Notes: generated from the sequence alone by a model not told the origin. A DNA stretch of 64,000 bases from Octopus sinensis (GCF_006345805.1 NW_021835468.1:5145-69144), one strand, 5' to 3'. Shown: positions 22,051 to 61,754, counted from the stretch's first letter. Made by a program: numbers and translations.

Positions 22051-22086
22051 ATATATATATATATATATACACACACACATGCATAT

Positions 22087-22304: not shown

Positions 22305-22352
<48 letters not shown>

Positions 22353-22461
22353 CACATACACACATATATATATGTATGTATATATATGTAGATATATGCA
22401 TCCATATATATATATGTATGTATGTATGTATGTATATATATTTCAAACCTTCTTTCGTATG

Positions 22462-22533
<72 letters not shown>

Positions 22534-22911
22534 TCGGGTATCTTTTCAATCTTTATATCATTCTTTTGAAATGTTCTTTTCACTCCCATTACCTCTCTTT
22601 TTCTCATTTTCTGTTCATTGCATCCTCTCAATCGCTTTCTCTCCCCTCTCCCTTATCATGTCTCCCTTTAGTTCTTTCTTTCGTCCTCTCTGATATTCTC
22701 TCTCTCTCTCTTTTTCTCTTTACACTAACACACAAACATACTCAGATATTCACACACAGAAATCAAACTCTAGCCATTTCATCAAATGAACTAACAGAAC
22801 TGTATTTGATTTCAAAATACTGAACAGAAGATAACCGATATCCTTTTCTAATGAGAGTAACAGAAGATAGAGATTTAGACAGACGCACACACAGATAGTT
22901 AGATAGACATA

Positions 22912-23058
<147 letters not shown>

Positions 23059-24171
23059 AGCTGATAGATCTAACGAATCGTGTGCTTATCAGACAGACTT
23101 GTCTAAGTCATGCAAGCATGAAGAGGGAAAAACATTGGAAAGGATAATTAAAGAGGATATAAAAAGAGAAGAGGAAAGCCAAAAGAACTGGAAGAGCTGG
23201 ATTATGGCAGAGAAAATGGCAGGAGCCATACCGATTATTGCTTTCGAGATGCTGTAGGCTGTAACCCTGTTGCATAGTTTTTTACATATTGCACTCAAAA
23301 CGGTTAAAAGAACAGTTTAAAAATGTTTATTAAGAAAAGGAAATGAAGGAGATTTCTTCAGTATCGCGTTTCAATTCATTTTCATTCAAATTCTAAATCG
23401 GTTACATTTTATTTTCCTTCCCATCATCTACGCCATCCTTTCTCCAAAATATCATCTGCTCTTCCACCATTTTTCTCTCTTCTTCTCTTTCTACTTCTTG
23501 AACTAATTATGCTCCAAAGATGATGCTGTCACTACGATCTCATTACTTCCATGTGGTGTTAAATAAATATTTATGTTGGTCACAAGTGAATATCTTGTGA
23601 TATTTCAGTGTTTTCTCTCAAATCCTCCTTCTCTATGCCAATTCATAATAAAGCACAGATGCTGTTATATTTTGTGTAAATCTCTCTGAAAAACAGCCAG
23701 TTTTACAGAAAGTTATTATCTTTATTAGGTATGCCTCACCCATCTTGTAAAAACATTTTATATTACCTTACAGAAGAACTTAACCCATCAACTTGAATTG
23801 CAATGGCGAATCTCTCTAGCAGTGAAAACAAAATATTTTTTTTAATATTAGTTTGACATTTACAGTGTTTTCATATTTATTTCAAATAAAAATTGAAACA
23901 ATTTAACAACAAGCCTGATTTAGCTGCCATACACAACACAGGCTATAAGCCATAACTCATGTCACAAGAGGTTTTCTGGGAAGGTTTACTTTTTTTCTTG
24001 TTTTTTGTTGCTTCTTTTGTTTTATTATTATTTTTTTTAGTTGTTTCACTCATTCTGCAGCAGCCATGCTGGAGCACACCTGGAGGGGTTTTTGTCAAAG
24101 AAACTAAACCCAAATCTTTAGGTATAATCTTTGACTTTTTTTACATGTTTCAGTCATTTGACTGCGGCCAT

Positions 24172-25625
24172 GCTAAGGCACAGCATATCTCCAAAGGTCT
24201 CGGTCTCCTGTCATTGCCTCTGTGAGGCCCAACTTTTGAAGGCCATGCCTCACCACCTCATCCCATGTCTTCCTGGGTCTACCTCTTCCACAGGTTCCTT
24301 CCACTGTCAGAGAGTAGCACTTCCTCACACAGCTGTCCTCATCCACATGTAACACATGACCATACCAGTGCAGTCGTCTCTCTTGCACACCAAATCTGAT
24401 GCTTCTTAGGTCCAACTTTTCTCTCAGGGTACTTACACTCTGTTGTGTATGCACACTGACATTACACATCCAGTGGATCATACTAGCTTCATTTCTTTCA
24501 AGCCTCGTCAAGTCCTCAGCAATCATGGCCCATGTTTCACTGCTGTGTAGCATGGCAGTTCACACACATGCATCATACAGTTCACTTTTCATCCTGAGCG
24601 AGAGTAGAAGTAGGAGCTCCCTGAACTTTGCCCAGCCTATTCTTATTCTAGTAGCTACACTCTCAGAGCAACCACCCCCACTACAGATTTGATTACCTAG
24701 GTAGCGATAGCTATCAACTACATCTAGTTTTTTTCCTTGGCATGTGATAGAATCTGTTTTCTGTACATCTTCAGTGTTTATTGCCCTTGTGCATCTGCCA
24801 CACACAAAAACTCTTTCTGGTTAACCTTCCTTTGATATTGCTGCACCTTTTATGTGTCCATAGCTTATACCATGTACATCATATGGAGTTTCTACCCACA
24901 CCTTTTCTACAGATCGAACAGGGCCATCTACATGAAGGGGTTTGTGATTTGACAGCCTTCCTACTTACTAAGACTTAGGTTTTTGCTAGATGAGCCCTAA
25001 GGCCCTTCAATTCTAGACCTTGCTTCCACACCCCAAACTTCGTCTCTAGTCCTGGCAGTGACACAGCTATTAGAGCAAGGTCATCAGCACAGAGGAGCTT
25101 CCAGGGGCAGCCTGTCTTGAATTCTTCTGTTATTGCCCGCAAAACTATGATGAATAAGAGGGGGCTGATGACTGATCCTTGGTGAACCCTTACTTCAACC
25201 CGGAATTCTTCACTATACTTGTTGCCAACCCTCACCTTACTGGCAGAATCCTTGTATAGCTCTTAGCAACCACTCATTTATCCCCAGTTTCTGCATTGAC
25301 CACCAGATAAGGGCTTAGGGGACCCTGTCAAAGGCTTTCTCCAAATCAACAAAAGCCAAGTACAGAGGTTTATCTGTGGCTAAGTATTTCTCCTACAGCT
25401 GTCTTACCAGAAATATAGCATCAGTGGTGCTTCTCCCTGGAACAAGCCCAAACTGCATCTCATTTAGACTGACTCTCTCCCTAATTAGTTGGGCTATAAC
25501 CCTCTCTATGACTTCCATTACCTGATCCAACAACTTGATACCTGAGTAATTATTTGTATCTAATGCATCACCTTTACCTTTGTAGCAGTTGACTATGGTG
25601 CTGCTACACCAGTCATTGGGTATAT
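24172..25625 (-). mobile_element. RTE LINE ORF2 fragment (RT, PHD finger, C-terminus), degenerate
   Basis: IPNDWCSSTIV..YKGKGD, MQFGLVPGRSTTDAIF, VHQGSVISPLLF, LLCADD, WYGHV, GRGRPRKTW, with frameshifts. Confidence 0.93.
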
Positions 25626-38470: not shown

Positions 38471-38668
38471 AGCGGAGTAAACGCATATGTGAAACAAGGT
38501 GGAAAAAAGAGTACTCAAATACCAGTGGTAGAGTAATATGCTTTATTTAAAGCAGCAGAAAATTCAACAAAACCTGTTACTCTAGCAAAAAACTGTCTGA
38601 TGAACGGCAACGGGAAACTCAGAGTAACAGGTTTTGTTGAATTTTCTGCTGCTTTAAATAAAGTATAT
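38471..38668. mobile_element. PLE-like mini-element as an inverted pair in (AT)n
   Basis: 48-bp arms at 38536-38583 and 38621-38668 (1 mismatch); a hammerhead overlaps the spacer and right arm. Confidence 0.7.
38593..38630 (+). ncRNA. Minimal type I hammerhead ribozyme motif
   Basis: CTGT-CTGATGA-A CG GCAA CG G-GAAA-CTC A GAG-TA-ACAG; predicted cut after GUA (38626); the 10.1-11.1 pair is mismatched. Confidence 0.72.
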
Positions 38669-38709
38669 GTATATATATATATATATATTATATTAAATTA
38701 TATATATAT

Positions 38710-38882
38710 ATATTAAATTAGAGACAAAACCATCCCCTGAATTATATATATATATATATATAATGGGATTAAGTGGTTTTGTCTCTAATTTAATATAATA
38801 TAATATTTTACTATAAAATTGGATTCAATCCTAAATCTGATTTTTCCCTGTAAGTTTGGATTTATTCCCTAATATTTATTAT
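38710..38882. mobile_element. Second inverted-pair mini-element in (AT)n, no visible hammerhead
   Basis: Arms ATATTAAATTAGAGACAAAACCA at 38710-38732 and 38774-38796, plus a one-sided tail. Confidence 0.5.
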
Positions 38883-38962
38883 TATATATATATATATATA
38901 TGCGTGTGTATGTATATATGTGTGCGTGTATATGTGTGTGTATATATGTATGTATGTATGAT

Positions 38963-39945
38963 TGTACTCTACAAGCCTTCTTCTAACAGTTCTGGTTGAT
39001 ATTTGTGAAGTACGTGCCTCATTGAAGTCCACACAGAGCTCCGACTATATTTTTCTCCTGTTTCAGAGTGACTGAGAGATGATCTATCTATCATCTTGAG
39101 GTGATGTAACCTTTTTTTATACTTGTTCTTTGTGTTGTCTTCACATCTTTTGTCTCTCTGAAGCGCTTGAGAGTCGTTTGCACTGCACATCAAGAACAGA
39201 GGCGCAATGGCCCAGTGGTTAGGGCAGCGAACTCACGGTCAAAGGATCGCGGTTTCGATTCCCAGACCGGGCGTTGTAAGTGTTTATTGAGCGAAAACAC
39301 CCAAAGCTCCACGAGGCTCCGGCAGGGGATGGTGGTGATCCCTGCTGTACTCTTTCACCACAACTTTCTCTCACTCTTACTTCTTGTTTCTGTTGTACCT
39401 GTATTTCAAAGGGCCGTCCTTGTCACTCTCTGTGCCACGCTGAATATCCCCGAGAACTACGTTAAGGGTGCACGTGTCTGTGGAGTGCCCAGCCACTTAC
39501 ACGTTAATTTCACGAGCAGGCTGTTCCGTTGATTCGGATCAACCGGAACCCTCGTCGTCGTAACCGACGGAGTGCTTCCATCACATCAAGAACATTTCAT
39601 CTGAGCAATTTGCCTTTGCAACCTTCCATCTTCATGATGAGCTATGATTTGACCTCACTCACACTCACTTAACCCCCTTGTTTTAGGTATTTTACAGTTT
39701 AATAATTGTACCTACAACATATTTTAGCATAAAACTCTGAAATAATCAAGGAAACATAAGTTAATTTTGGACATTGGTCTTACTCATAAATGGTAGCGTA
39801 TATACAGTATAAAAGTAGTAACTGATGCTAAAGGAGGGTCAACCAGATATTAAAACTAATGTGAAATATGCCATAATCTATCTTGTGCACAAGTTTCATT
39901 AACACCAAAACATTGGGGTGGCCTAATACTTTTGGCCAAGGCTGT
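38963..39945 (-). mobile_element. Tc1-like transposon 5' relic
   Basis: TA-CAGCCTTGGCCAAAAGTATTAGG terminus; degenerate DDR...NRR...SEL...ISTRTVRRRL. Confidence 0.7.
39199..39580 (+). mobile_element. SINE family B inserted in the Tc1 relic
   Basis: TSD CACATCAAGAACA at 39186-39198 and 39582-39594. Confidence 0.93.
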
Positions 39946-40572
39946 ATGTGTGTGTGTGTGTGTGGAGGACACCTGTGGTAGAGGTAGACCCAGGAAGACA
40001 TAGGATGAGGTGGTGAAGCATGATCTCCGAACTCTGGGCCTTGCAGAGACAATGACTAGTAACCGAGACCTTTGGTGATATACTTTGCTTGAGAAGACCC
40101 ACCAAGCCAAGTGAAATCATAGTCGTGGCTGATGCAGGTGGTATGTAATTGGCACCCATGCAGGTGTAAATGGCACCTGAGCAGATGTCATGTAAAGAGC
40201 ACCCTTCAAGCGTTGAGTCTCACAGAGGCAAAGGGGTTGAGCTCCTTTCTAATGTTGGGCCTCATAGAACCAACGACCGAGACCTTTGGCATTATGTTGC
40301 ACTTGAGAAGAGGACCCATCATACCAAGTAAAATCAGTTGTAGATACCAGTGTCACACAAATAGCACCCATGATGGTGGCATGTAAAAGCACCCATTACA
40401 CTCTTGGAGTGGTTGGCATTAGGAAGGGTAGGCATCCAGACATAGAAAACCATGCCAAATCAGACTGGAGAATGGTGCAACCTTCAAGCGTGAAGCCTGG
40501 TCAAACCATCCAACCCATGCCAGCATGGGCAACAGACGTTAAATGGTGATGATGATGTGTATATAAATATAT

Positions 40573-40982
40573 GGTGAGCTGGCAGAATTGTTAGCACGCC
40601 GGGTGAAATGCTTAGCGGTATTTTGTCTGCGTTACGTTGTGAGTTCAAATTCCGCCGAGGTCGACTTTGCCTTTCATCCTTTCAGGGTCGATAAATTAAG
40701 TACCAGTTACGCACTGGGGTCGATGTAATCGACTTAATACCTATGTCTGTCCTTGTTTGTCCCCTCTGTGTTTATCCCTTAGTGGGTAATAAAGAAATAG
40801 GTATTTTGTCTGTTGCTATGTTCTGAGTTCAAATTCCGCCGAGGTCGACTTTGCCTTTCATCCTTTTGGGGTCGATAAGTTAAGAACCAGTTACGCACTG
40901 GGGTCAATGTAATCGACTTAATCCATTTGTCTGTCCTTATTTGTCCTCTCTGTGTTTAGCCCCTTGTGGACAATAAAGAAAT
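40573..40982 (+). mobile_element. SINE family C dimer (a copy inserted into a copy)
   Basis: GGTATTTTGTCTG duplicated at 40617-40629 and 40800-40812. Confidence 0.85.
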
Positions 40983-41794
40983 GATAAATATATATACATA
41001 CATACATATATTCTTTTATTTCTTTTTTTTTGTTTCAGTCATTTCCCTGTGGCCATGCTGGAACACTGCCTTGAAGGGATTTTAGTCAAACAAATCATTG
41101 TCAGGACTTACTTTTTTAAAGCCTAGTAGTTATTCCATCGATTTCTTTTGCTGAATCGCTAAGTTATGGGGATGCAAACACACCAACACCAGCTGCCAAA
41201 TGGTGATGGGTGGGGGGAGACAAACACAGACACAAAGACACACACACATATACAAGTAGAGAGGCCTTAAGCCAACAGGTTTGGGAATCTGGTGATACAC
41301 CACAAAGTACCGTAAAGCTAGGCGCTTTATGGATGTGAAACCCAGGGTAACCCCATAAACCTGCCTTATCTGACTTTATTGTGTTCATGCAACTTAGCGG
41401 TTCGGCGAAAGAGACAGATAGAATAAGTACCAGACTTTAAAAAACATAATTCTGCCCTCGGGTGACAACTGTTGGCGAAAACCCCACAAGGCAGTGCCCC
41501 AGCATGGTCGTCGTCCAATGACTGAAACATGCAAAAGGCAAAAGACGTATACATTCTTATATTCGTTTACTTGTTTCAGTTATTTGACTGCGGCCATGCT
41601 GGAGCACTGTTGGCGTGGTTAAATGGTTCAGAAGTTGTTTTCCTAACTACATGGCGTCGGGTTCGGTTCCACAGTGTGACACCAGGTGCGAGCGTCTTCT
41701 ACTCTAGCCCCAGGCAAACCGAGGAGTTGTGCGTGCATTTGGGAGACAGAAACTGTGAGAAGCCTGTCGTGTGTGTGTGTGTGTGCATGTATGT

Positions 41795-42120
41795 GTGAAG
41801 GCACGTGGTTTAGTAGTTATGGTATTCAGCTCACACTCACGAGGTCGTGAGTTCGATTCCCGGAGGCCGTTGTGTCCTTGAGCAAGACACTTTATTTCAC
41901 GATGCTCCGGTCCACTCAGTTGGCAAAAATGAGTTGTACCTGTAATTCCAAAGGGGCTAGCCTTGTCACATTCTGTGTCACACTGAATCTCCCTGAGAAC
42001 TACATTAAGGGTACACATGTCTGTGGAGTACTCAGCCACTTGCACCATTAATTTCACGGGCAGGCTGTTCTGTTGAATGGATCAACTGGAACCCGGGTCG
42101 TCGTAACCGACAGAATGCTA
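41795..42120 (+). mobile_element. Hybrid SINE: family D head/CORE with family B tail
   Basis: The 5' part matches 44049 onward up to AAATGAGTTG; the 3' part matches family B from GTTGTACCTGTA. Confidence 0.8.
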
Positions 42121-42132
42121 GTTTCACATCTA

Positions 42133-42509
42133 TACTCTTTTACTTGTTTCAGTCATTTGACTGCGGCCATGCTGGAGCACCGCCTTTAGTCGAGCGAATC
42201 GATCCCGGGACTTATTCTTTGTAAGCCCAGTACTTATTCTATCGGTCTCTTTTGCCGAACCGCTAAGTAACGGGGACGTAAACACACCAGCATCGGTTGT
42301 CAAGCAATGCGAGGGGAACAAACACAGACACACAAACACACACATATATATATACATATATACGACGGGTTTCTTTCAGTTTCCGTCTACCAAATCCACT
42401 CACAAGGCATTGGTCGGCCCGGGGCTATAGTAGAAGACACTTGCCCAAGGTGCCACGCAGTGGGACTGAACCCCGAACCATGTGGTTGGTTAGCAAGCTA
42501 CTTGCGCCT
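42133..42509 (-). mobile_element. SINE family A
   Basis: Nearly full copy. Confidence 0.9.
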
Positions 42510-42619
42510 ATGTATGTGTATTTTGATTTAATTTTTTTTTTGTTTTTTTGTTTTTCAGCATCAATCTCTAATCAAAACTAAATTAGCCTTAAATAAGCTG
42601 CAAACGAGAAACAGATACT

Positions 42620-43110
42620 TTTCTTTCCGTTTGCCTCTTTACAATTTATCCGTCGAAGAGAAAACGGCGGAGACGAAACAGTTCGTTTACGTTAACATAT
42701 CTCGTTACACAAAACAACAGCCAGTAATTTAAAACAAAAAGTGTTTCTCTTACAATGTCTATATTTTATTACTACAACAAAACCGACAACAAAACTCGAA
42801 GTCTCAGGGGTCTTTCAACAGGAAGAATACGCCATCTTTATTTCGACTTTCTTTTGATGGCGACGACGTCGAGGGCGGACTTGCTTTATTTGTATATTTA
42901 AATACAATCTGTTTAGCTTAGCAAGATCAACAGTGACGATGAACACAATATATAAACATTATATTGATTGCTATTTGAAGTGTAACACCCTGTCATTGCT
43001 TCTAGTTTACCGTCGACGCCATTACGACGCTGTTCCTCTGATATTTCGTATCACCATTCTACATAAACATCGCATGCTGCTCTCAGTGTGTGTCGGTGTT
43101 GTTAGTTGAT
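42620..43110. promoter_or_regulatory. Non-repetitive CpG-rich segment, candidate promoter or enhancer
   Basis: Many retained CpGs; YY1-like CGCCATCTT at 42830, ATGGCG at 42857, GC box GGGCGG at 42873. Confidence 0.3.
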
Positions 43111-43374
43111 ACAGGGGATTTTAGTTAGAGTCTTTCTTTAGTTCTTTTATTATTTCACTTTATGTTATCTTATTTATATCGTATTTTTCTTTCTTTTTTT
43201 TTCTCTGTAGTATAAAAATCAAAAGAAACTTTTATCTTCTGCCCCTCTTTTACTCCAACAAACCTTTTTTCTTCCTCTCTCGACAAAAGAAGGAAAAGAA
43301 TAACATGGCTTCACTTTCTAGATCAATTCCTTTCTATAAATATTCTCCTTAATCCATCATCTTCTCTCTACTAT

Positions 43375-43412
<38 letters not shown>

Positions 43413-43413
43413 A

Positions 43414-43451
43414 CTGTCTGATGAACGGCAACGAGAAACTCGGAGTAACAG
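43414..43451 (+). ncRNA. Minimal type I hammerhead motif (same family as 38593) in a 73-bp unit at 43412-43484
   Basis: CTGT-CTGATGA-A CG GCAA CG A-GAAA-CTC G GAG-TA-ACAG, embedded in (TA)n. Confidence 0.72.
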
Positions 43452-43610
43452 ATTTTGTTGAATTTTCTGCCGCTTTAAATAAAGTATATATATATATATT
43501 TTATGTACACACACATTAAAATACACGCACACATTTAAAGGTATATACAAGCATATACACACGTACATACACGTTTTACATGTATAAATAAATAAGTATA
43601 TATATATTTA

Positions 43611-43654
<44 letters not shown>

Positions 43655-44048
43655 AATTATATATACCATTTACTTTTATCCGTTTCAGTTGTTAGACTAC
43701 GGCCATGCTGGGGCACAGCCTTGAAGAACATCTTTTTTGAAGCCTGGTACTTATTCTATCGGGTCCTTTGCTGAACCGCTAAGTTATGGCAACGTAAACA
43801 CGCCAACACCGGTTGTCAAGCAACGGCGGGCGCCAAACACAAAGCCACACACACATACAAACAGACACAAACGCACAGAAATGTATACCACGGGCTTCTT
43901 TTCGGTTTCCGTCTAATCTACTCACAAGGCTTTGGTCGGCCCGGGGCTATGGTAGAAGACACTTGACCAAGGTGTCACGCAGTGGGAGCGAACCCAAAAC
44001 CATGTGGTTGGGAAGCAAACTTTTTACCACACATACATACGTATGTGT

Positions 44049-44375
44049 GTGAAGATGCATGGCTCAATGGTTAGAACGTCAGGCTCACAATCACAAGGTA
44101 GTAAGTTCGATTCCCAGACCGGGCTGTGTGTTGTATTCTTTGAGCAAGACACTTTATTTCACGTTGCTCCAGTTCACTCAGCTGTAGAAATGAGTTGTGA
44201 CGTCACTGGTGCCAAGCTGTATCGGCCCCTTTGCCTTTCCCTTGGGTAACATCGTGGCATGGAAAGGAGAGGATGCATGGACGACTGCTGGTCTTCTATA
44301 AACAACCTTGCCCGGACTTGGGACTTCTAGGTGCAACCCTATGATCATTCATGACTCAAGGGGGTCTTTACCCTT
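44049..44375 (+). mobile_element. SINE family D
   Basis: Reverse-complement match to 10815-11152. Confidence 0.85.
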
Positions 44376-45619
44376 TTTCATATACATACATGTATGTATA
44401 TGCGTGTAGGTATGTATAATATTCAACCCAGTCAAACACGGCACATGAACATTAAATGATAACGAATGCACACACACACACACACACACAGACATTTGTG
44501 TGCGTGTGCAAATATCCTTTGTTGGTGTACATTTGCAAGGAAACCAAAAGGTCAGCACTCAAGTCCCTTGAGATATTTGTTCCCAAGCAAGTTATAAACA
44601 CTCCCTTGTCCGTCCTTGTTACCAGAGTTACAAGCCAGTGATTGGTCCTCAGGAAATCCTGTTCCCCGATTGCAACATGAAAATAAATAAATTACATAAA
44701 AACAAGCTAAAAAATCTAATATCACCTTCCATTCTCCCGCCTCCTTGTGGAATAACGAAGTCGTGTCAATTAAAAGAACCATCTTTAACAATTAATATAT
44801 CTTTATCGTCCATGTTTCTATCGACATAAACGTTCGTTCGTTTATTTTTCATGTTTGAACTTTTAAAAAATCTTCACAATCGTTATCTTGTTGAAACAAA
44901 ACCATTTAACGTTATCGTCTACATCAGATACCAGCACACAAACACCTGATGGCTAAGTCTATCTTGTCAACAAGCAGTTTTCTCCATCGACTGGCGCCTG
45001 CTTCTCTGCTGTTTCCAAAACACGACTTGCTTGAAATTGCTTTATTTCGTTACAGACGTTTGTTCGTTTTAATTTTTTTTTTTTTTTAAATATCTTTCAT
45101 TTGAAGAGAAGGTTGACATGATAGTTTTTGATCAATATTAAAGTCTGGTTCTATCATGATAAAGAAGGTTAATTGATTGGTCACCAGACTATGGCCGGCT
45201 TACTTCAGTAACAACACATAGCAACTTGTACAATCATCACCATCATTGTCGTCATCGTTATTTTAACGTCCACTTTTCCATGCTTGCATGCGTCGGAAAG
45301 AATTCGCCGAGAGAAATTTTTCTGTGGCCGGACGCCCTTCCTGCCACCAACCCTCGCCTGTTTCCCCATGCTAAGGCACCGAGCTGGCAGAATCATTCCC
45401 ACACTGCGAAAAAATGCTTAGCAGCATTTCGTCCGTCTTCACGATCTGAGTTCAAATTCTGTCGAGTTCGACTTTGCTTTTGGAGCTGATAAAATAAGTA
45501 CCAGTTGAATACTGGGGATCAATGTAATCGACTTACCCTCCCCCACTCGTAATTGCTTGCCTTGTGCCAAAATTATTATTATTATTATTACTATTATTAT
45601 TATCATCATCATTATTATT

Positions 45620-46048
45620 CTGTTGTGTCTGGGGAGTCATTCTCTTTAGTGCCTTATAATATAACACACTCACCGGTAAAATTTCCACTTATTTCTTATT
45701 TTTATTTTCCTAAAATTTTCGTTGCATCTTGCAACCTAGTCAATAGTTTTGACTCTTGGAAACAGCAGAGAAGCAGCCGCCAGTCGATGGAGAAGACCGT
45801 TTGTTGACAAGATAGACTTAGGTGTTTGTGTGCTGGTATCTGATGTAGGCGATAACGTTAATAGTCAAGACTATTGAAAAGGTTGCAAGACGCAACGAAA
45901 ATTTTAGGAAAATAAAAATAAGAAATAAGTGGAAATTTTACCGGTGAGTGTGTTAAATTATAAGGCACTAAAAGAAAATGCGTCTCCCCAGACACAACAG
46001 TATATGCTTCAATACACGAACTCATATAAAGAATCTTGCAAACCAAAT
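45620..46048. mobile_element. PLE-like inverted pair enclosing captured local DNA
   Basis: Arms 45620-45754 and 45863-46000; spacer 45756-45861 is the reverse complement of 44906-45018; hammerhead-like TTGAAAA-G-GTTGC AAGAC GCAAC-GAAA at 45874-45900. Confidence 0.7.
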
Positions 46049-46062
46049 CATTATCATTATTA

Positions 46063-46612
46063 TTGAGTGAGAGAGCAGTTCATGCCATCAAAGTGACACT
46101 GGGGTAAAATATACGAAGCCCAATATACCCAACATGACTACCCGTCTGATAAGGGTACACCAGGCACATGCATCACAACCATATGTGCGCGACATGGTGA
46201 TCTCATAAAAAGATAAACAGCACATGACCTTGCAGGTGGGGCCCAGTTAGAATTTTCTTCAGGTTGAGTAGCTCATCCCACTCAAAAGGTCCCTGAATAA
46301 GGGTTGTTTAAGGATGTTGAAAGAACCACCCATGTTTCCAGAGGTGAATTATTCAAACCCCAAAGAATCCCTCTCAACACATGGCTATGATGCTCCCCCA
46401 CTACTTCTGCTCGTGATCAGAGATGCACATATCGTCAGCCACTAAGGGGCATGCTCAACTGGTTAAGGTCAAGCAACTGACAAGCAAATCTATGGTATTG
46501 AGCAGAATATTTGCTGTAGCCCATCTTTTATACCAAGACAAAACAATGTACATGATAACACTTGCAATCAGTTAAGATCAGAAGCCATGAGAGCCACTAC
46601 CTAGTACTGCAT
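46063..46612 (-). mobile_element. Unclassified repeat in (ATT)n (same family as 34616-35104)
   Basis: Flanked by (ATT)n on both sides. Confidence 0.7.
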
Positions 46613-47854
46613 CATTATTATTATTATTATTTCACGGTCGATAAAATAAGTACCAGTTGAGCACCGGGTTCAATGTAATTGACTTATCCCTCCTCGGAAC
46701 TTGCTGGCCTCGTGCCAAAATTTGAAACCACCACCACCATCAAGGTAGCGAACTGGTAGAGTTGTTTGCACACAGGGCAAAATGCTAAATCTGTTGTTCT
46801 TTTGCTTGTTTCTGTCATTTGACTGCGGCCATGCTGGAGCACTGCCTTTTAGTCGAAGAAACCGACTCTGGGACTTATTCTTTTGTAAGCCTGGTACTTA
46901 TAGTCTGTCGGTCCCTTTGCCAAACCGCTAAGTTACGAGGACGTAAACACACCAACATGGCGGGTGTGATACTGCTTGAATGACAGTGGCACTCGTTTAC
47001 GACTATGATGCAACATCAGGAGGAGGAGGAGGAGGAGACAAACAAATCACACACACATACACACAGATATATATATACACACATACACACATTTGAAAAG
47101 AGACTTGGAGATGTGGCGATTTGCTGTACTTGATAAGACACGGCAAGCAAAGATCAGTTTTCCACACATCACCACCACAATGCCACCACCACCATCACCA
47201 TCACCAACATCACCACCACCATCACACCACCACCATCACCACCACACCACCACCATCACCACTGCCATACCATCACAACCACCACACCACCACCACCATC
47301 ACCAACATCACCACCACCACACCACCACCACCACCATCACCAACACCACCGCCACCATCACACCACCACCACCACCATCACCAACACCGCCACCACCACC
47401 ATCACCACCACCACCACCACCGCCACCACCATCACCAACACCACCACCACCATCCTCATCGTCATCATTATCACCATCATGACGAATATGAAGATGGTGG
47501 TAGAGGTAGCGGTGGTTGCGATGGTGGAGATGATAGTGATGGTGGTAATGATGAAGATGGTGGTGACACTGACAGTGACTCATATTAAAGGGGTACGTAC
47601 CACTGAACTGATGGTTGTCATGTACCAAGTGTGTCCCTGGACCAGAGGTCATCAACCGAGAGGTCAATCCCACCCATTCCATTATCTACCCCCCATCATC
47701 CACCCCCTCGACTTCATATATTATTTGGTGTCTGTTGTTGTTTACCGAAAATGCTGTCTCTGTTACGATGGGGTGGGCATGGTTGGAACACATTCACCTT
47801 ACTATTCCTTAACTCCACACCTCTCAACCACACATCCTCACCATTTTCCCACTC

Positions 47855-49150
47855 CCTCCCTCTCTCTCTCTCTCTCTCCATTCCTTTCTCTGTCTTTTGC
47901 TGTCTCTCTCTTCCTCTCTGTCTCACTTTCTCTTCCTCCTCTTTCCATCTCTCTCTCTCTGTTTCTCTCTCTTTATCTCTGTCTCTCTCTTCCTCTCTCT
48001 GTGTCTCTATCTGTCACTTTGTGTTTCTCTCTTCCTCTTCCTCTCTCCCAGTCTCTCTCTCTTCATCTTCCTCTTTCCATCTCTCTCTCTATCTCTGTGT
48101 CTCTTCTTCTCTATCTCTCTCTCTCCCTATCTTTCTCTTCTCTGTCTCTCTCTCTCTTCTTCTATATCTCTCTCTGTCCCTATCTTTCTCTTCTCTGTCT
48201 GTCTGTCTCTCTCTCTCTATCTCTGTGTCTCTTTTTCTCTATCTCTCTCTCTCCCTATCTTTCTCTTCTCTGTCTGTCTCTCTCTATCTCTCTTCTTCTC
48301 TGTCTCTCTCTCTCCCTATCTTTCTCTTCTCTGTCTGTCTGTCTCTCTCTCTCTATCTCTGTGTCTCTTCTTCTCTATCTCTCTCTCTCCCTATCTTTCT
48401 CTTCTCTGTCCTCTCTCCTCTCTCGTCTCTGTCTCTCCTCTCTCTGTCTCTTCTTCTCTATCTCTCTCTCTCTCTCCCTATCTTTCTCTTCTCTGTCTCT
48501 CTCCTCTCTTCCTCTCTCTCTGCCTCTCTCTTCCTCTCTCTCCTCCCCTCCCCCCCCTCTACTCTCTCTCCCTATCTTTCTCTTCTCTGTCTCTCTCTCC
48601 TCTCTCTCCCTATCTCTGTCTCTCCTCCTCTCTCTCTCTCCTCCCTATCTTTCTCTTCTCTGTCTTCCGTCCTCTCTCCCCCCCTCTCCTCTCTGTCTCT
48701 CTTCTCTGTCTCTCTCTCTGTCCTCTCTCTCTCTTCTTCTTCTCTCTCCTCTCTCTCTCCCTATCTTTCTCTTCTCTGTCTCCTCTCTCTCTCTCCCTAT
48801 CTGTCTCTCTCTGTCCTCTCTCTCCCTCTCTTTATTCTCCTCCTATCTTTCTCTCTCTCTCTTCTGTCTCTCTCTCCTCTCTCTGTCTCTTCTCTCTGTC
48901 TTCTCCTCTCTCTCTCTCTGTCTCTCTCTCTGTCTCTCTCTCCTGTCCTCTCTTCTCTAATCTCTCTCTCTCCCTATCTTTCTCTTCTCTGTCTCTCTTC
49001 TCTCTCTCTCTCCCTATCTTTCTCTTACCTGTCTCTCTCTCTCTCCCTATCTTTCTCTTCTCTGTCTCTCTCTCTCTCTCCCTATTCTCTGTCTCTCTCT
49101 CTCTCTCCCTATCTTTCTCTTCTCTGTCTCTCTCTCTCTCTCTCTTCCCT
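47855..49150. repeat. 1.3-kb polypyrimidine (CT-rich) tract with a recurring CTCCCTATCTTTCTCTTCTCTGTC unit
   Basis: Read directly. Confidence 0.93.
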
Positions 49151-49448
49151 TTCCACCCACAACTTCCTCCATCACTCCTCAACATTGTGTCTAAAATTAA
49201 AATGTGGCAGCAATTGTTTATTGTTTTTCTGGAAACAGGACAAGATGCTGGAAGAACAGATGGAAAAAAAACCCCGTTCACACGTGATGATGCCATCTTC
49301 ACATCACAGCCTATTAAATGCAAACAAATAACAAAAAACTCTGCTTTTAACTTTAAAAATAGACTTAAATACACTCAACATGAGATTAATAGGAGGTGGT
49401 TGACATTGAAGCAGTTTCCAGCATATATATATATAGAAATGGTATAAA

Positions 49449-49481
<33 letters not shown>

Positions 49482-50137
49482 CATACAAAAAGTCGACCTC
49501 GGCAGAATTTGAACTCAGAACGTAAAGGCAGACGTAATATGAATAAGCATTTCGCCCGGCGTGCTAACGTTTCTGCCATCTCACCACACAGCCACACCTG
49601 TGTCTGTAAATTTTCACTTCGATTTTTGTATAAACTGGCATTGCAAGTAGGTACAGAAACAATTGTTATGAACCATTAAAGATACGCGAAAAAATTTCTT
49701 TGTCTCCTTGTTATTTGGATGATATATCAATATATATATATTATCATCATCATCATCGTTTAACGTCTTTTTCCGTGCTAGCATGGGTTGGACGGTTCGA
49801 CCGGGTCTGGGAACAGGAGGATGCAACCAGCTCCAGTCTGATCTGGCAGTGTTTCTACAGCTGGATGCCCTTCCTAACGCCAACCACTCCATGAGTGTAG
49901 TGGGTGCTTTTTATGTGCCAGGGGAGGCTGGCAGTGGCCACGATCAGTTGGTGTTTTTTACGTTCCACCGGCACAGAAGCCAGTCAAGGCAGCGCTGGCA
50001 TCAGCCACATTCGGATGGTGCTTTTTACGTGCCACTGGATATATATATATATATCATTATCATCATTTAACATATATACATACATGCAACCCCCCCCCCA
50101 TATTAATCGATGTATAAAATATTATATATCCATTACG

Positions 50138-50227
50138 GCTGATCTTACCAATTGGTTTCACACTAGGGGTTCAATGGAATGTAAAGTAACAGTCCGATTA
50201 TGTTACCTTGTATTCATCAGAGGTAGC
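50138..50227 (-). ncRNA. Type I hammerhead motif with canonical core and extended stem II
   Basis: Minus strand: GCTACCT-CTGATGA-ATACAAGG..38 nt..CCTAGTGT-GAAA-CCAATTGG-TA-AGATCAGC. Confidence 0.7.
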
Positions 50228-50574
50228 TAAAGGTGAGGGCTGGAGATGCTCAATGTAGAAAATACATAGTGGTATTCAAGTAATTTGAACTTAACTCCCA
50301 CTTCTTTATTGAGGATTAGGTCCATGAGACAAGCGTGACTATAAAGAGAAATCCAGAGGAGTTGAAATGAAGATAATGATGGAGATAAACAAGATTAAAT
50401 ATAGATGAAACTTAGTCATGTTTATCTGCATCACTATCTCTATACACACGTTGTATAATATAATATATATATATTATATATATATTATATATATATATAT
50501 AATATATATATATATTATATATGAAAAAACAAGTAAAAAATAGAAAATGCTAAAATAATTTTATAGTGAACATT

Positions 50575-50612
50575 CAGTACTGGTTTCGGTCATTTTGAGA
50601 CCTTTTCAACTG
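50575..50612 (-). ncRNA. Minimal hammerhead, U3:A8 core variant
   Basis: CAG-TTGAAAA-GGTC TCAAAAT GACC-GAAA-CCAG-TA-CTG. Confidence 0.68.
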
Positions 50613-50778
50613 TAACGGTTAAAATAATTAAATTTAGACAAAACTACTATCGAACACAAAGTGCAAACAAGGGAGTCAGAGAAAGGCAAATGCCACTTAT
50701 ATCTGAACACTACTATAGAAATATTCCTTTAAAAAAACTTTTCTTCTAATTTTTCTAAATTTAATTATTTAATCGTTA

Positions 50779-50815
50779 CAGTTGAAAAGGTCTCAAAATG
50801 ACCGAACCGGTACTG
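50779..50815 (+). ncRNA. Minimal hammerhead, U3:A8 core variant, one A of GAAA lost
   Basis: CAG-TTGAAAA-GGTC TCAAAAT GACC-GAA-CCGG-TA-CTG. Confidence 0.6.
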
Positions 50816-50930
50816 AAATGTTCACTATAAAATTATTTTAGCATTTTCTATTTTTTACTTGTTTTTTCATATATATCAACTCGTGTGTTCCTTTTCACCC
50901 TTATACATATATATATATATATATATATAA

Positions 50931-53111: not shown

Positions 53112-54311
53112 CATCATCATCATCATCACCGTCGTTTAACATCCGTTTTCCATGCTAGTATGGGTTGGACAGTTCATCCGGGGTCTGGGAAGCCAGGAGG
53201 CTGCACCAGGCTCCAGTCTGATCTGGCAGTGTTTCTACAGCTGGATACCCTTCCTAACGCCAACCACTCAGTGAGTGTAGTGGGTGCTTTTTATGTGCCA
53301 CCGGCACTGGTGCCAGGGGAGGCTGGCAGCAGCCATGATCGGTTGGTGGATTTTACGTGCCACCGGCACAGAAGCCAGTCAAGGCTGTGCTGGCATCGGT
53401 CACGTTTGGATGGTGCTTTTTACATGCCGCCAGCACAGGTATCGTAACTACAATTTCCATTTGATATTTATTTTGATGTTGATGTACTTGACTCAATAGG
53501 TCTCCTCAAGCACAGCAGGTCACCCTATGATCCAAGGTAAGCTCAGCAGGTCGTTCTGCAATCCAAGGTAGTTTGGATGGGCTGGGGCTATTCGAAACTG
53601 GTGCAGGAAGCAGCCCGGGTCTTTGCAGTCACAGCATATCTCCAGAGATCTTGGTCTTTCGTCATTGCATCTGTGAGGCCCAACGTTTGAAGGTTATGCT
53701 TGACTACCACATCCCATGTCTTCCTGGGTCTACCTCTCCCCCTGATACCTTCAACTGTTTGGGAGTGGCACTTCTTCACACATCTCTCCTCATCCATCCA
53801 CAGTACATGACCATACCATCGCAAGCGTCTCTCTTGCACACCACATCTGATGCTTCTTATGTCCAGCATTTCTCTCAGGGTGCTTACACTGTCGTGTGTG
53901 CACACTGACATTACACATCCAGTGGATCATGTTAGCTTCATTTCTTTCAAGTCTACGCATGTCCTCTGCAGTCACAGCCCATATTTCACTACCGTGAAGC
54001 ATGGCAGTTCGCACACATGCATCATACAATCTACCTTTCACTTTGAGCGAGAGACCCTTTGTCGCCAGTAGGGGTAGGAACTTTCTGAACTTTGCCCAGG
54101 CTATTCGTATTCTAGTAGTGACACTCTCTGAGCATCCACCTCCACTACTAACTTGGTCACCTAGGTAGCGGAAACTATCAACTACTTCTAGTTTCTCCCC
54201 CTGGAGTGTGATGGAATCTGTTTTCTGAGTATCTGTGGTGTCTATTGCCCCTGTGCATCTGCCGCACATGAAAGCTATCTTATCAGTTAGTTTTCCTTTG
54301 ATGTTTCTGCG
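53112..54311 (-). mobile_element. 5'-truncated RTE LINE (ORF2 C-terminus and 3' UTR)
   Basis: LEVVDSFRYLG, RIAWAKFR, WYGHV, GRGRPRKTW; (GAT)n tail. Confidence 0.93.
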
Positions 54312-54639
54312 TGGCCACAAAGTCATGCACCATGGGAGATATCAAGTATGCTTTATTAGCAATGAAGTAGGCAATCCATTACAAATGTTCAAAGTGTTGG
54401 CCATGTGGCTCTAAACAAGTGTTTATAGGGAATTTGAAATTGCGATGAAACCTCTAAAATAGCTCTTCATTGCTGTTGACTTGTTCACACGCTTCAACAA
54501 TTCTTTGAAGAAGATGTCCTTGGTCACCAATCTTTTCAGAATACACAAGGGATTTAATGTAGCCCCAGAAGAAAATTCCATAGGAGCTAAATATGTAATG
54601 GCCATTATTTATACCTTGTCTTATAAATATATATAAATA

Positions 54640-54935
54640 CTAGCATTATCGCCCGGCGTTGCTCGGATTTGTAAGGGAAATAACTATATAAGCATTTTTA
54701 GAGGGTTACTTCCCTCATAAAATAGCAAAAAAATGCATTAAAAATGGGAAAAAATGATGGTAAATTTTTTTTTAAATCGTAGACTCATCGTAGACGCGCG
54801 TTAATACCCAGAAGGGGTCGATATGAATCACGACTATAAGATACCCGGTTTTGGTTAAACTGCACCGCAAAATGTGGGAGTAGTTAGGAATCTAAATCGT
54901 AGGAGACAGACACACAACTTCACTTTTATATACAT
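54640..54935 (-). mobile_element. Non-autonomous Helitron (same family as 21372-21668)
   Basis: Near-identical sequence; CTAG end with hairpin. Confidence 0.85.
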
Positions 54936-55065
54936 ATACACACAGTAACCCCTCGCCATATCACGGTTTATTATTTAAGCTTACATTGATTCCTCCATGG
55001 TGTTGTTTTGAATTTATGATAAAATAAACATATACAAATTATAAAAATAATAAAAAAAACATATA

Positions 55066-57207
55066 CATAGACTAGTAGTTAGTGACTTTAGGATCAGGAC
55101 TAAGAGGACAACCAGAAGACGACCAGCATGGAGAAGAAGGATCTGGAAGCTTAAAGATCCTGCGAATGGACAGAGATTTAGGGACATGCTACTTGAAGCC
55201 TTTGACGAAGTAGAAGGGGATAGAGTATCACATGGGGTAGAAGGCAACTGGACGTTTCTAAGGGACAACCCGCTGAGAGCCACTGACCAGATCTGTGGCT
55301 GGTGCAAAGTCCCCTCTCGTCCCAAGGTAATGTGGTGGTGGAACAATGTTGTAGACAGGGCTATTAGAGAAAAGAGACAGGCTTGGAAGGTCTGGAAAAA
55401 TGGGGGTAGCAGGGGATTGTATCAGACTGCCAAGAGGGAAGCTAAGAGACAGGTCTATCTAGCCAGAGGGGAAGCAGATAAGAAAAAATTTGCTAATGTT
55501 CTGTGCCGTGAGGACCAAAGACTGGAGGTGTTTCGAGTTGCAAGACAGTGTGTGAGAGAGAATCGTGATGTGGTAGGAGAGAAGTGTGTTCGCATGGAAG
55601 ATGGTTCACTTGCGCTAAATGAGGATGCAAAGAGAGAGGTTTGGAGACACCACTATGAAAGGTTGCTGAAAATGAATGGGATAAAGAAAGTCTGCCGAAT
55701 GTTGACCCAACAGAGGGACCAGCTATTTGAGTTGATAGTTCCTTGGTAGCTAAGGCAATTAGAAGTATGAAGACAGAGAAAGCCCCAGGCCCATCAGAAA
55801 TCACTGCAGAGATGCTCAAAATATCTGGTAGTGTCGGCTATAGCCTAGTCACCCGTATAGTTAATCAGGTGATACACGAAGGAGTCATACCCAATGACTG
55901 GTGTAGCAGCATAATAGTCAACTGCTACAAAGGTAAAGGTGACGCCCTAGATACAAATAATTATAGAGGTATCAAGCTGTTGGATCAGGTAATGAAGGTT
56001 ACGGAGAGGGTCATAGCCTAACTAATTAGAGAGAGAGTTAGTTTAGATGAGATGCAGTTTGGGTTCATGCCAGGGAAAAGTACCACTGATGCTATATTCC
56101 TGGTAAGGCAGCTGCAGGAGAAATACCTAGCCAAAGATAAGCCCCTGTACCTGGCTTTTGTTGACATGGAGAAAGCCTTCGACAGAGTCCACCGATCCCT
56201 TATCTGGTGGTCAATGAGGAAACTAGGGATAGATGAATTGGGAGCTCCTCTATGCTGATGACCTTGCTCTAATTGCTGAGTCACTATCAGAACTGGAGGA
56301 GAAGTTTCAGGTGTGGAAGCAAGGATTAGAATCGAAGGGCCTTAGAGTCAATCTAGCTAAAACCAAAGTCCTAAGAAGTAGGAAGGTAGACCAATCACAA
56401 ACGCCTTCAGGTAGATGGCCCTGCTCGATCTGTAGAAAAGGTGTAGGTAGAAACTCTATAAGATGCACCAAGTGTAAGCTATGGACACATAAGAGGTGCA
56501 GCAATGTCAAAGGAAGGCTAACTAGGAAGATAGTTTTTGTATGTGGCAGTTGCTCAGAAACAATAAACACTGAAAATGCTCTGAGACTAACTTCTGTCAC
56601 TTTCCAGGGAGAAAAACTAGAAATAGTTGATAGCTTCCATTACCTAGGTGTCCAAGTCAGTAGCGGGGGTGGGTGTGCTGAAAGTGTAACTGCTAGAGTA
56701 AGAATAGCTTGGACAAAGTTCAGAGAGCTCTTACCTCTGCTAGTGACAAAAGGCCTCTCGCTCAGAGTAAAAGGCAGACTGTATGACGTGTGTGTACGAA
56801 CAGCCATGCTACATGGCAGTGAAACATGGGCCGTGACCGCTGAGGATATGCATAAGCTCGCAAGAAATGAAGCCAGTATGCTCCAATGGATGTGTAATTT
56901 CAGTGTTCATACTCGACAGAGTGTAAGTACCTTGAGAGAAAAGCTGGACCTAAGAAGCATCAGATGTTGTGTGCAAGAGAGACGTTTGCGCTGGTATGGT
57001 CATGTGGCGAGAATGGATGAAGATAGTTGTGTGAAAAAGTGCCACACCCTAGCGGTTGAGGGAACCTGTGGAAGAGGCAGACCCAGGAAAACCTGGGACG
57101 TGGTGGTGAAGCACGACCTTCGAACTTTAGGTCTCACTGAGGAAATGACTAGAGACCAAGACCTCTGGAAGTATGCTGTGCGTGAGAAGACCCGGCAGGA
57201 CAAGTGA
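55066..57207 (+). pseudogene. LINE ORF2 (reverse transcriptase with PHD finger), disrupted
   Basis: Frameshift near 55670, stop at 56019-56021, deletion of the QG..SP region at about 56238; C4HC3 finger at 56422-56553. Confidence 0.92.
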
Positions 57208-57739: not shown

Positions 57740-58720
57740 ACAGTACCATACTTTGTCTACTTTACAGATTTTCACCTAACGTGGGGGTTTTGAGAATGTA
57801 ACACTCGTGATAGTTGAAGGATTTCTGCATAATATACACACACACATATATATTTGTACGTGTGTATGTGTATAGAATAATGGCAAAACCAAGTGTTATT
57901 TTGAATGCATTTAATTCATGTTTTTCAAGTAATTACAAAGAAATTTTCAGTGAGGAGGGTATAATGTACAAAATTTCTTACATAACTACTCAAAATGTGT
58001 GTACGAAATGCATTCAAAATATCAACATTTGGTTTTGCCTTTGTTACATATTATTATAAAGCCATGCCATTACAATCTAGCCTGTCCTTGTTTTATTTGC
58101 ATGGTTAATGTAATTTCAAAGTAGAATCACACAGAATTACCAATATTATTAAAGAGAATTTCCATCCTGAAGGAATCTATGAACATCCGTAACAGATCAA
58201 TCAATCAATCAATATAGAACTATAATTGCCTGTTTCTTAACAATCATCATTAAATGAATTCTTAATAACCATTCTTAGCCAATTATTAGTGAAGTCTTTG
58301 AGAATTCTACTACTAATTCTTCAGGAATGTGATTCTTGTGGTAATTAGATTAAATGTTATTAAAGTATGATCTCATCGTTAACATATGTATTTGTTTATC
58401 TGTCATAAAATAATGTAACATGGATTTGAACTTGTATTGCCACATTATCAATTTTAAATTATGACTTAACTACGGCTTAATCCTATGCATTGTTGAGTAA
58501 CTGTCCAGTTGGCGGCCGGTGTTCACATTATAGTTTCTCAGTTCTTCTAGAAGCCTCTACAAATACAGCCTATAAACAGAGTCCTTTTGGTGCCAATTTT
58601 AGTGTGCCTCTGGGATTGGTACCGAATACAAACCCTGCTTTAGTCATTCTAATGGCTACATACTTAACCAAAATGCGATGGTAGTAGAAGACTGTGGTAG
58701 CAGAATAATGGTAGTAGAAG

Positions 58721-61669: not shown

Positions 61670-61754
61670 AGTCAAGACTATTGAAAAGGTTGCAAGACGC
61701 GACAAAAATTTTCGGAAAATGTAAATAAGAAATAAGTGGAAATTTTACCGGTGA
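61670..61754 (+). mobile_element. Third copy of the 45863 PLE-like unit
   Basis: Begins at the same AGTCAAGACTATTGAAAAGG boundary; GAAA is mutated. Confidence 0.75.

What the first reader, a model, noticed from the sequence alone, without database searches (positions are those of the whole stretch)
38471..50900. Hammerhead-bearing mini-elements that sit in microsatellites, often as inverted pairs
Seen: at least four unrelated sequence families (38593/43414; 45874/61680; 50138; 50575/50779) carry the type I hammerhead order: stem I, CUGANGA-like core, stem II, GAAA, tiny palindromic stem III, UH, stem I. They lie in or near (AT)n/(ATT)n, have no ORF, and three loci are built as arm-spacer-inverted arm with a one-sided tail. 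Established: minimal type I hammerheads with palindromic stem III mark Penelope-like element pseudo-LTRs and are proposed to cleave as dimers. Inference: the genome holds a dense population of non-autonomous ribozyme retroelements that standard annotation would miss (about 9 motifs in 64 kb, counting relics).
Basis: partly seen in the sequence, partly recalled or inferred. Interest (0 to 1): 0.82.

Follow-up and report, generated by a model that had tools for sequence, protein, structure and literature searches.

The report
Penelope retrotransposon stubs carrying hammerhead ribozymes
This stretch of animal DNA holds several short repeats with a hammerhead-ribozyme-shaped motif, often as head-to-head pairs beside AT repeats; they are likely the end pieces of Penelope-like jumping genes, a known kind of element, and the one family measured has very many copies.

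Summary
The motifs are real: 5 have an intact core and 4 are damaged; the strict descriptor finds 3 against a null mean of 0.05. Three loci are head-to-head arms with a one-sided tail in AT-type microsatellites. This is the published pattern of Penelope-like element (PLE) pseudo-LTR ends. Family A shares helix I, core and helix III with metagenome repeats that lie 145-192 nt behind a Hydra-clade PLE ORF in 10 loci; one subfamily matches published Hydra-2_Amil. Family B is very abundant (8,287-23,162 contigs laid per run), has two 3' ends and forms head-to-head joins elsewhere; its spacer here is an inverted copy of single-copy DNA 740 nt away. No PLE ORF lies in the window and none was linked to B, C or D. 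'Non-autonomous elements' is not shown; truncated PLE ends explain the data. New detail: in the A-like relatives 5' ends pile up 5-16 nt before the core, about 25-30 nt behind a TATA-like box, so most copies likely are run-off copies from the element's first pseudo-LTR. Cleavage is untested. New members of a known kind.

The parts
38471..38540 (-). Family A tail (70 nt), present on this arm only; ends at an (AT)n run
   Evidence: the outer end is read from the start of the microsatellite
38541..38583 (-). Family A inverted arm, 5'-truncated inside helix III (no core)
   Evidence: 47 of 48 nt identical to the partner arm
38592..38663 (+). Family A arm with minimal type I hammerhead: core 38597-38603, GAAA 38614-38617, predicted cut after 38626; no tail
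43413..43484 (+). Family A solo copy inside (TA)n, same 5' and 3' ends as 38592-38663; core 43418-43424
44906..45018 (.). Single-copy host DNA, source of the family B spacer
   Evidence: tables 2-4 (depth 33-48; the laid contig carries this locus's alleles and its 7-nt insert)
45620..45754 (-). Family B inverted arm, no tail; core damaged at position 8 (45743-45737)
45755..45862 (+). Spacer: inverted copy of 44906-45018 (5 substitutions, one 7-nt gap)
45863..46005 (+). Family B arm with U3:A8 hammerhead (core 45874-45880, GAAA 45897-45900, U17 at 45904); short 3' end near 46005
   Evidence: table 7
46006..46048 (+). Family B tail (other copies go about 10 nt further, then AT repeat); an ATG at 45978 opens a frame through it
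   Evidence: table 7
61670..61754 (+). Family B solo copy, same 5' start, G12 lost, not in a microsatellite
50134..50227 (-). Family C candidate: core 50220-50214, 54-nt helix II domain, palindromic helix III, A17 at 50146; one copy in the window
   Evidence: fold no better than shuffles
50519..50638 (-). Family D inverted arm with U3:A8 hammerhead (core 50609-50603), no tail
50639..50753 (.). Family D spacer, no other match in the window; origin unknown
50754..50872 (+). Family D arm, core 50782-50788, one A of GAAA missing, perfect ACCGGU helix III
50873..50906 (+). Family D tail (about 34 nt), then (AT)n
   Evidence: the outer end is read from the microsatellite
38712..38875 (.). Fourth head-to-head pair (arms 38712-38731 and 38775-38794, tail to about 38875) with no ribozyme motif; likely the same kind, truncated further
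41276..41363 (+). Extra decayed hammerhead candidate (core 41290 with A6G, palindromic helix III, long helix I)
   Evidence: z -2.67, 3 of 200 shuffles as good

Best explanation
These repeats are likely the short end pieces (pseudo-LTR, with or without its tail) of endonuclease-bearing Penelope-like retrotransposons of at least four families, each carrying a minimal type I hammerhead motif whose cleavage is untested. Steps: (1) inferred from PMC11167929: the element's RT-GIY-YIG protein cuts AT-rich DNA on both strands and primes DNA synthesis on its own RNA at either of two internal sites downstream of the ribozyme; seen: two 3' ends, both running into AT repeats. (2) inferred: most copies are made from the first pseudo-LTR of a transcript that starts a few bases before helix I, so synthesis runs off the RNA 5' end after 70-190 nt; seen: shared 5' starts in the window and a pile-up of 5' ends behind a TATA-like box in the relatives of family A. 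(3) inferred: two such copies primed on the two strands of one break are joined head to head, one with and one without the tail; seen: 16 of 19 pairs among the relatives and the three pairs in the window. (4) inferred: the join is made by repair that can copy in nearby DNA; seen once, the family B spacer. (5) inferred: the genomic stubs are mostly inert, having no promoter or ORF, and in a pair the ribozyme would be locked in a long hairpin with its antisense arm.
For: (pattern = family A core, helix III and 3' helix I, helix II free) gave 120 metagenome loci; with 2 loci they hold 141 copies of one architecture. In 10 loci (two on one contig, two probably one insertion) the C-terminus of a PLE ORF lies 145-192 nt upstream on the same strand, and L048 has the ribozyme followed by a 714-codon frame with the RWK, DKT, CxCx5C, CxxC and CxH marks of the Hydra clade (marks from PMC8557442 section 11). 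One subfamily reads, by eye, as published Hydra-2_Amil, whose listed ribozyme has the same helix I, core and helix III as window copy 43418. Relatives: 3' ends cluster at about 30 and 98 nt after helix I; 43 of 96 copies with enough flank have an inverted partner, and 16 of 19 pairs are tail plus no tail; after removing 12 repeats of one insertion, 62 5' ends fall in 907 nt at risk 5-16 nt before C3 against 6 in 1,994 nt at 17-100 nt, and a TATA-like box lies at -38 to -43 in all three subfamilies. Family B: 8,287-23,162 contigs laid per run in 4 of 4 runs; summed depth up to 3.9 million on the arms against 33-48 on the spacer; 14 of the 15 best joints shown (of 386) join a variably cut inverted arm to an arm starting at 45860-45874; loose ends at 46005 and 46048-49 run into AT repeats. 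Literature: inverted truncated copy, 30-40 bp one-sided tail and (TA)n targets (PMC8557442); two RT starts that define the tail (PMC11167929); pseudo-LTR holding the first codons, and host DNA caught between solo pseudo-LTRs (PMC3846280).
Against: No PLE ORF in the window. For B, C and D no link to an ORF: two protein searches with the B frame gave nothing usable (0 hits; 1 hit at E 3e-4, a repeat protein), and pattern scans for B and D in prokaryote genomes gave scattered hits that look like chance or coding matches. Family A's likeness to the relatives is confined to the ribozyme, most of which was in the search pattern: the downstream part is not significantly alike (6 pairwise tests, best 13 of 1,000 shuffles; a profile of 33 tails did not find it). 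A's helix II has only 2 bp and lacks the G10.1-C11.1 pair. Some B copies extend at least 24 nt further 5' (table 7), so B's start is not one fixed base, and the joints are biased towards the reference's own edge. The 5'-end hazard rises again at 101-200 nt (9 ends in 534 nt). No RNA evidence for the start site. Core conservation in B is weak.
Confidence: 0.85

Rival explanations
1. The short units are self-standing non-autonomous retroelements (SINE- or retrozyme-like): short master copies are transcribed, perhaps helped by the TA run they sit in, and are copied again by a PLE protein in trans.
For: Very high abundance of B in 4 runs with subfamily-type variants; shared 5' starts (A 2 of 2 ribozyme-bearing copies, B 3 of 3); no ORF found for B; non-autonomous PLE derivatives are in print (PMC8557442 passage; preprint 10.64898/2026.07.22.740005).
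Against: No tandem arrays at these loci; 19 of 19 double-hit loci among the relatives are inverted; long copies of the relatives continue into the ORF; stubs start downstream of the TATA-like box.
Confidence: 0.2
2. Same PLE origin, but the stubs come from ordinary early 5' truncation of full-length RNA primed in the last pseudo-LTR, with the polymerase stalling at the ribozyme fold, or from recombination that leaves solo pseudo-LTRs. This differs from the best reading only in step 2.
For: Heavy 5' truncation is typical of PLEs; recombination was proposed for solo pseudo-LTRs (PMC3846280); the partner arm is often cut inside the ribozyme (38583; table 5).
Against: The pile-up lies 5-16 nt beyond the core, in AT-rich sequence outside the motif and at the distance expected behind a TATA box; recombination would keep the whole pseudo-LTR, including the 130-180 nt upstream.
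Confidence: 0.35
3. The inverted pairs are MITE-type DNA transposons or fold-back artefacts, and the ribozyme look is incidental.
For: Long near-perfect inverted repeats; single motifs mostly fold no better than shuffles; no Rfam hammerhead among the rows shown.
Against: Solo arms (43413, 61670), one-sided tails, arms cut at variable places in other loci, a single-copy spacer, descriptor excess over shuffles and the link of the same motif to PLE ORFs.
Confidence: 0.03

Closest known systems
Minimal hammerheads of metazoan PLE pseudo-LTRs (Cervera and De la Pena 2014, PMC4209133)
   Same: Type I order, short helix I, palindromic helix III, U3-A8 core variant, unpaired base after position 9 (family B), thousands of single copies, pairs 100-700 bp apart on opposite strands.
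   Different: Family A has a 2-bp helix II without G10.1-C11.1; family C has a 54-nt helix II domain; B looks more numerous than the 2,000-9,000 motifs per genome given there; no tandem pair around an ORF was seen here.
Hydra-clade PLEs, especially Hydra-2_Amil (Craig et al. 2021, PMC8557442 and supplement)
   Same: Helix I CUGU/ACAG, core CUGAUGA, helix III ACUC-N-GAGU, A17, GNRA loop 2, (TA)n targets, inverted truncated partner and tail. A mismatch at the base of helix II and U17 are common in the supplement's Hydra table.
   Different: Family A's helix II is two bases shorter and its downstream sequence is not significantly alike; the listed octopus member Hydra-1_oBim has another ribozyme (helix III ACCA-A-UGGU, nearer to family C); no ORF is tied to the window's own copies.
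Poseidon PAc of Anolis (Frangieh et al. 2024, PMC11167929)
   Same: Two 3' ends defining a tail, AT-rich targets, AC-rich end of the tail in B, ribozyme near the predicted ORF start.
   Different: There shown with purified protein; here only the genomic footprint. PAc's ribozyme needed the protein to cleave and was dispensable for insertion.
Non-LTR retrozymes of animals (PMC7229834; preprint 10.64898/2026.07.22.740005)
   Same: Short, non-coding, type I hammerhead, likely moved by PLE proteins.
   Different: Retrozymes are head-to-tail arrays of 150-450 bp with canonical hammerheads and give circular RNAs; these are solo or head-to-head with minimal motifs.

Membership tests
PLE minimal hammerhead | Core CUGANGA or U3:A8 variant, then GAAA and UH | tested here: met
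   5 motifs intact, 4 damaged
PLE minimal hammerhead | Palindromic helix III | tested here: met
   A, B, C and the D right arm; the D left arm is one change off
PLE minimal hammerhead | G10.1-C11.1 pair, with an unpaired base after position 9 | tested here: inconclusive
   B has both; D has the pair only; C has A-U; A has a mismatch, as many Hydra-clade motifs do
PLE minimal hammerhead | Motif better conserved than flanks across copies | tested here: inconclusive
   B: 1 of 33 non-CpG motif positions vary against 11 of 67 downstream, p 0.046; p 0.20 without the first 14 nt; 4 rows of the table were not shown; the core CpG decays 3-13% against 8-13% outside
PLE minimal hammerhead | Self-cleavage as a dimer or with protein | not testable with these tools
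   needs in vitro transcription
Endonuclease-bearing PLE insertion | Inverted 5'-truncated partner copy | tested here: met
   A, B, D in the window; 14 of 15 joints shown for B; 43 of 96 relatives of A
Endonuclease-bearing PLE insertion | Tail at one end only (two 3' ends) | tested here: met
   A 70 nt, B about 45-55 nt, D about 34 nt; table 7; 16 of 19 pairs in relatives
Endonuclease-bearing PLE insertion | Insertion in (TA)n or AT-rich DNA | tested here: met
   6 of 8 independently fixed ends within 8 nt, background 4.2%; table 7
Endonuclease-bearing PLE insertion | RT plus GIY-YIG ORF attached to the same pseudo-LTR | tested here: inconclusive
   none in the window, searches for B blank; met only for relatives of A; no genome held
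Hydra clade (family A) | ORF with RWK, DKT, CxCx5C, element under 3 kb | tested here: inconclusive
   met in L048, which bears the same ribozyme type; the window family's own ORF was not available, and its tail is not significantly alike
Non-LTR retrozyme | Head-to-tail tandem units of 150-450 bp | tested here: not met
   no array at these loci; 0 of 19 double-hit loci are same-strand; long arrays may collapse in short contigs
Non-LTR retrozyme | Circular RNA | not testable with these tools
   only contigs were on offer
MITE | Equal terminal inverted repeats around a family-specific interior | tested here: not met
   unequal arms, solo arms, single-copy spacer

The most novel reading that the evidence does not exclude
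The flood of solo and head-to-head hammerhead stubs is a regular by-product of Penelope biology: the element primes inside the first pseudo-LTR of its own transcript and runs off a TATA-defined 5' end, writing 70-190 nt ribozyme cassettes by the tens of thousands, pairing them across one double-strand break and sometimes copying in neighbouring host DNA. The 5' ends of dead copies would then map the element's transcription start, and stubs that land in a TA run might regain a promoter and breed as true non-autonomous elements.
Probability: 0.4. Interest if true: 0.55.

Novelty: new member of a known kind. Interest (0 to 1): 0.3.

Why it matters
As a catalogue entry it is ordinary: every structural feature is described for Penelope-like elements. 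Two points are of use to specialists. The abundance of family B (depth ratio of order 10^4 to 10^5, which the tool warns is no copy number) suggests that such stubs are a sizeable repeat class in this animal group, and the families were not found in my paper searches. The pile-up of 5' ends behind a TATA-like box gives a testable account of why solo and inverted pseudo-LTRs outnumber full elements, which the papers I read put down to truncation or recombination; it ties the in vitro internal priming of PAc to a genomic footprint. The pairs would also give 50-135 bp RNA hairpins if transcribed (inference).

Tried and rejected
No whole genome is held, so no genome-wide descriptor scan and no extension of the window's families. 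Rfam: only microsatellite-driven matches below gathering score among the 150 rows shown of 279. An exact 26-nt family A pattern found 0 loci in metagenome, prokaryote-genome and viral collections; the general A pattern found 0 viral loci. B and D patterns in prokaryote genomes: 35 and 120 scattered loci; many D hits look like one conserved coding motif (my reading), none was followed. Protein searches with the B frame: 0 hits among 3 candidates; 1 repeat-protein hit, rejected. Apparent likeness of the family A tail to the relatives' tail: seen by eye, not significant, so not used. The idea that 44906-45018 is the 5' UTR of a coding exon: the ATG frame closes after 18 codons, dropped. A possible 57-nt intron in B (GTGAGT at 45944 to AG at 46000) that would keep a frame open: seen by eye, untested. 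No RNA holder listed: no evidence either way. In one search no contig with the spacer's own alleles was listed; contigs do not show absence, so nothing is concluded on the age or spread of this insertion. One search used a structure string off by one column and is void; one search replaces it, and shows no covariation beyond shuffles (212 of 500) on 7 sequences. My first reading of the 50138 motif as a relic without a core was wrong: the core lies 54 nt further up. Earlier findings: none by sequence or by the long word list. Not-in-print claims rest on paper searches and supplement searches only; subscription journals, Repbase and Dfam were not searchable, and the supplements of PMC4209133 and PMC13282606 were not read and may hold these families.


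Full report
Setting. The window is repeat-rich animal DNA: many microsatellites, short interspersed repeats, and LINE-like reverse transcriptase pieces near 25 and 56 kb. Its repeats look to me like those of octopus; this is recall and comes from no call. No genome is held.

Observation. A descriptor after PMC4209133 finds 38597+, 43418+ and 45874+ under strict settings, against a null mean of 0.05 and 0 of 200 shuffles; two looser settings add 45743- and 50609- and are less distinct (3 of 200 each). Pairwise alignments show that 61681+ has lost G12 and 50782+ one A. A ninth, decayed candidate lies at 41290+. The descriptors were adjusted after I saw the motifs. Rfam shows no hammerhead among 150 of 279 rows, and 7 of 8 single motifs fold no better than shuffles, which is expected for motifs without a stable helix III but is no support. 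Three loci are arm, spacer, inverted arm, with a tail on one side; a fourth, without ribozyme, lies at 38712-38875. Six of 8 ends fixed by homology or are within 8 nt of an (AT)n or (ATT)n run, background 4.2%. No PLE ORF is in the window: 146 frames (145 of the 147 listed plus one) gave no GIY-YIG hit, and tblastn was blank.

Family B across public runs. Contigs of 4 runs from 4 differently labelled organisms (4 of the 24 runs listed) were laid on 45622-46062 at 80% likeness. 8,287 to 23,162 contigs were laid per run. Summed depth reached 0.37-3.9 million on the right arm against 12-48 over most of the spacer; the ratios are 1.2x10^4 to 1.1x10^5, which the tool warns is no copy number. The contigs on the spacer carry the alleles and the 7-nt insert of 44906-45018, so the spacer is an inverted copy of single-copy DNA 740 nt away and not part of the family. 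Of the 15 best joints shown (371 not shown), 14 join an inverted arm cut at various places to an arm starting at 45860-45874. Loose ends at 46005 and 46048-49 run into AT repeats, so there are two 3' ends. Loose ends before 45863 and 45869 show that some copies go at least 24 nt further 5'. Variants of 5% or more fall on 1 of 33 non-CpG ribozyme positions and 11 of 67 downstream (p 0.046; 0.20 without the edge); the CpG at C11.1-G12 decays at 3-13% against 8-13% outside. An ATG at 45978 opens a frame through the tail, as the pseudo-LTR and tail hold the first codons in rotifer PLEs (PMC3846280), but two protein searches did not find the protein.

Relatives of family A. A pattern of A's core, helix III and 3' helix I gave 120 metagenome loci (scan stopped at its limit, about 160 estimated) and 32 loci in prokaryote assemblies, most unrelated; together 141 copies in 122 loci share one architecture. 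3' ends cluster about 30 and 98 nt after helix I. 43 of 96 copies with enough flank have an inverted partner within 300 nt; all 19 double-hit loci are inverted, 16 of them tail plus no tail. In 10 loci a PLE ORF ends 145-192 nt upstream on the same strand; L129 and L132 are one contig, and L014 and L072 are probably one insertion. L048 has the ribozyme followed by a 714-codon frame with the Hydra-clade marks of PMC8557442 section 11; it has 2,522 homologs at E 1e-30 among 8,000 scored, only 4 of the 120 listed with a name and none named as a PLE. Pfam gave it no family, whereas other ORFs on L132 gave RT plus GIY-YIG. One subfamily matches, by eye, the published Hydra-2_Amil from ORF end to tail, and the supplement's ribozyme table lists the same helix I, core and helix III as window copy 43418. 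Against a close tie: beyond the motif, family A is not significantly like these relatives, and most shared bases were in the pattern.

Where copies begin. After removing 12 repeats of one insertion (129 copies; 95 with the 5' end inside the contig, 34 cut by the contig end), 62 ends fall in 907 nt at risk 5-16 nt before C3, 16 in 611 nt at 0-4, 6 in 1,994 nt at 17-100 and 9 in 534 nt at 101-200. A TATA-like box lies at -43, -38 and -41 in the three subfamilies. That a start site lies 25-30 nt behind a TATA box is general knowledge. The pattern demanded a whole core, so shorter copies were not sampled, and AT-rich flanks blur ends by a few bases. In the window, both ribozyme-bearing A copies start 5 nt and all three B arms 11 nt before the core; D's arms share about 29 nt.

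Mechanism. PMC11167929 shows that a PLE protein cuts both strands of AT-rich DNA, extends both, and starts reverse transcription at two internal sites that bound the tail; its ribozyme needed the protein and was dispensable for insertion. I infer that priming in the first pseudo-LTR of a transcript that begins just before helix I gives these stubs, that two such products on one break give the head-to-head pair with one tail, and that repair supplied the local spacer at B. In a transcript through a pair the ribozyme would be held in a long hairpin, so these copies are unlikely to cleave; head-to-head copies also cannot supply the same-strand dimer that the minimal motif is proposed to need. Confidence 0.85 for PLE origin; about 0.5 for the run-off step.

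Comparison and novelty. Single minimal hammerheads, opposite-strand pairs and the U3-A8 core are in PMC4209133; inverted truncated copies, tails and (TA)n targets in PMC8557442; captured host DNA and solo pseudo-LTRs in PMC3846280. Retrozymes are tandem and canonical (PMC7229834; preprint 10.64898/2026.07.22.740005), which these are not. PMC13282606 reports 31 recently active Penelope-like families in Octopus vulgaris and has no occurrence of 'hammerhead' or 'ribozyme' in its main text. Searches and supplement searches did not find these families or the start-site account; closed journals and repeat databases were out of reach. Verdict: new members of a known kind, interest 0.3.

What I saw of each paper. 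PMC4209133: parts 1-2 of 4 of the text. PMC8557442: outline, passages, section 11, two supplement searches and supplement parts 2 and 52 of 59. PMC11167929: parts 1-2 of 4. Preprint 10.64898/2026.07.22.740005: part 1 of 5 and passages. PMC13282606, PMC3846280, PMC7229834: passages only. Earlier scan notes showed 8 of 358 findings, all from other genomes; one describes a like pattern in TA repeats and was not checked.

Noticed in passing
window 57876-58045: Weak inverted repeat (68% over the fold-back) with a palindrome after GAA at 58005; may be another decayed pair, folds no better than shuffles.
   Followed up: partly
window 41276-41363: Decayed hammerhead candidate with a long helix I, set between pieces of short interspersed repeats.
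   Followed up: partly
window 42505-43372 and 44560-45210: Unrepeated, CpG-bearing stretches that look like regulatory DNA; part of the second is single-copy and held in all 4 runs laid.
   Followed up: partly
window 55054-57207, 53591-54341, 24176-25262: Broken LINE-like copies (RTE-type by my recall) with reverse transcriptase matches and, in the longest, a cysteine-rich finger.
   Followed up: no
window 54636-54925: Short repeat that I recall as Helitron-like; not tested.
   Followed up: no
window 7723-8330 and 4112-4483: A Mos1-type HTH match below cut-off, an open frame with C2H2 fingers, and a frame that I recall as a restriction-like endonuclease of a LINE.
   Followed up: no
L129, L132 and L122, L127, L131, L133, L136, L143 (record filed as a bacterial MAG): The record is full of animal-type PLE copies, including intact RT plus GIY-YIG ORFs of 816 and 513 codons and other hammerhead families; it looks like host DNA binned as a bacterium.
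   Followed up: partly
window 45944-46000: A perfect 5' splice-site look-alike and a matching AG bound 57 nt in family B; one arm ends at the AG and the 61670 copy ends 4 nt into it.
   Followed up: no
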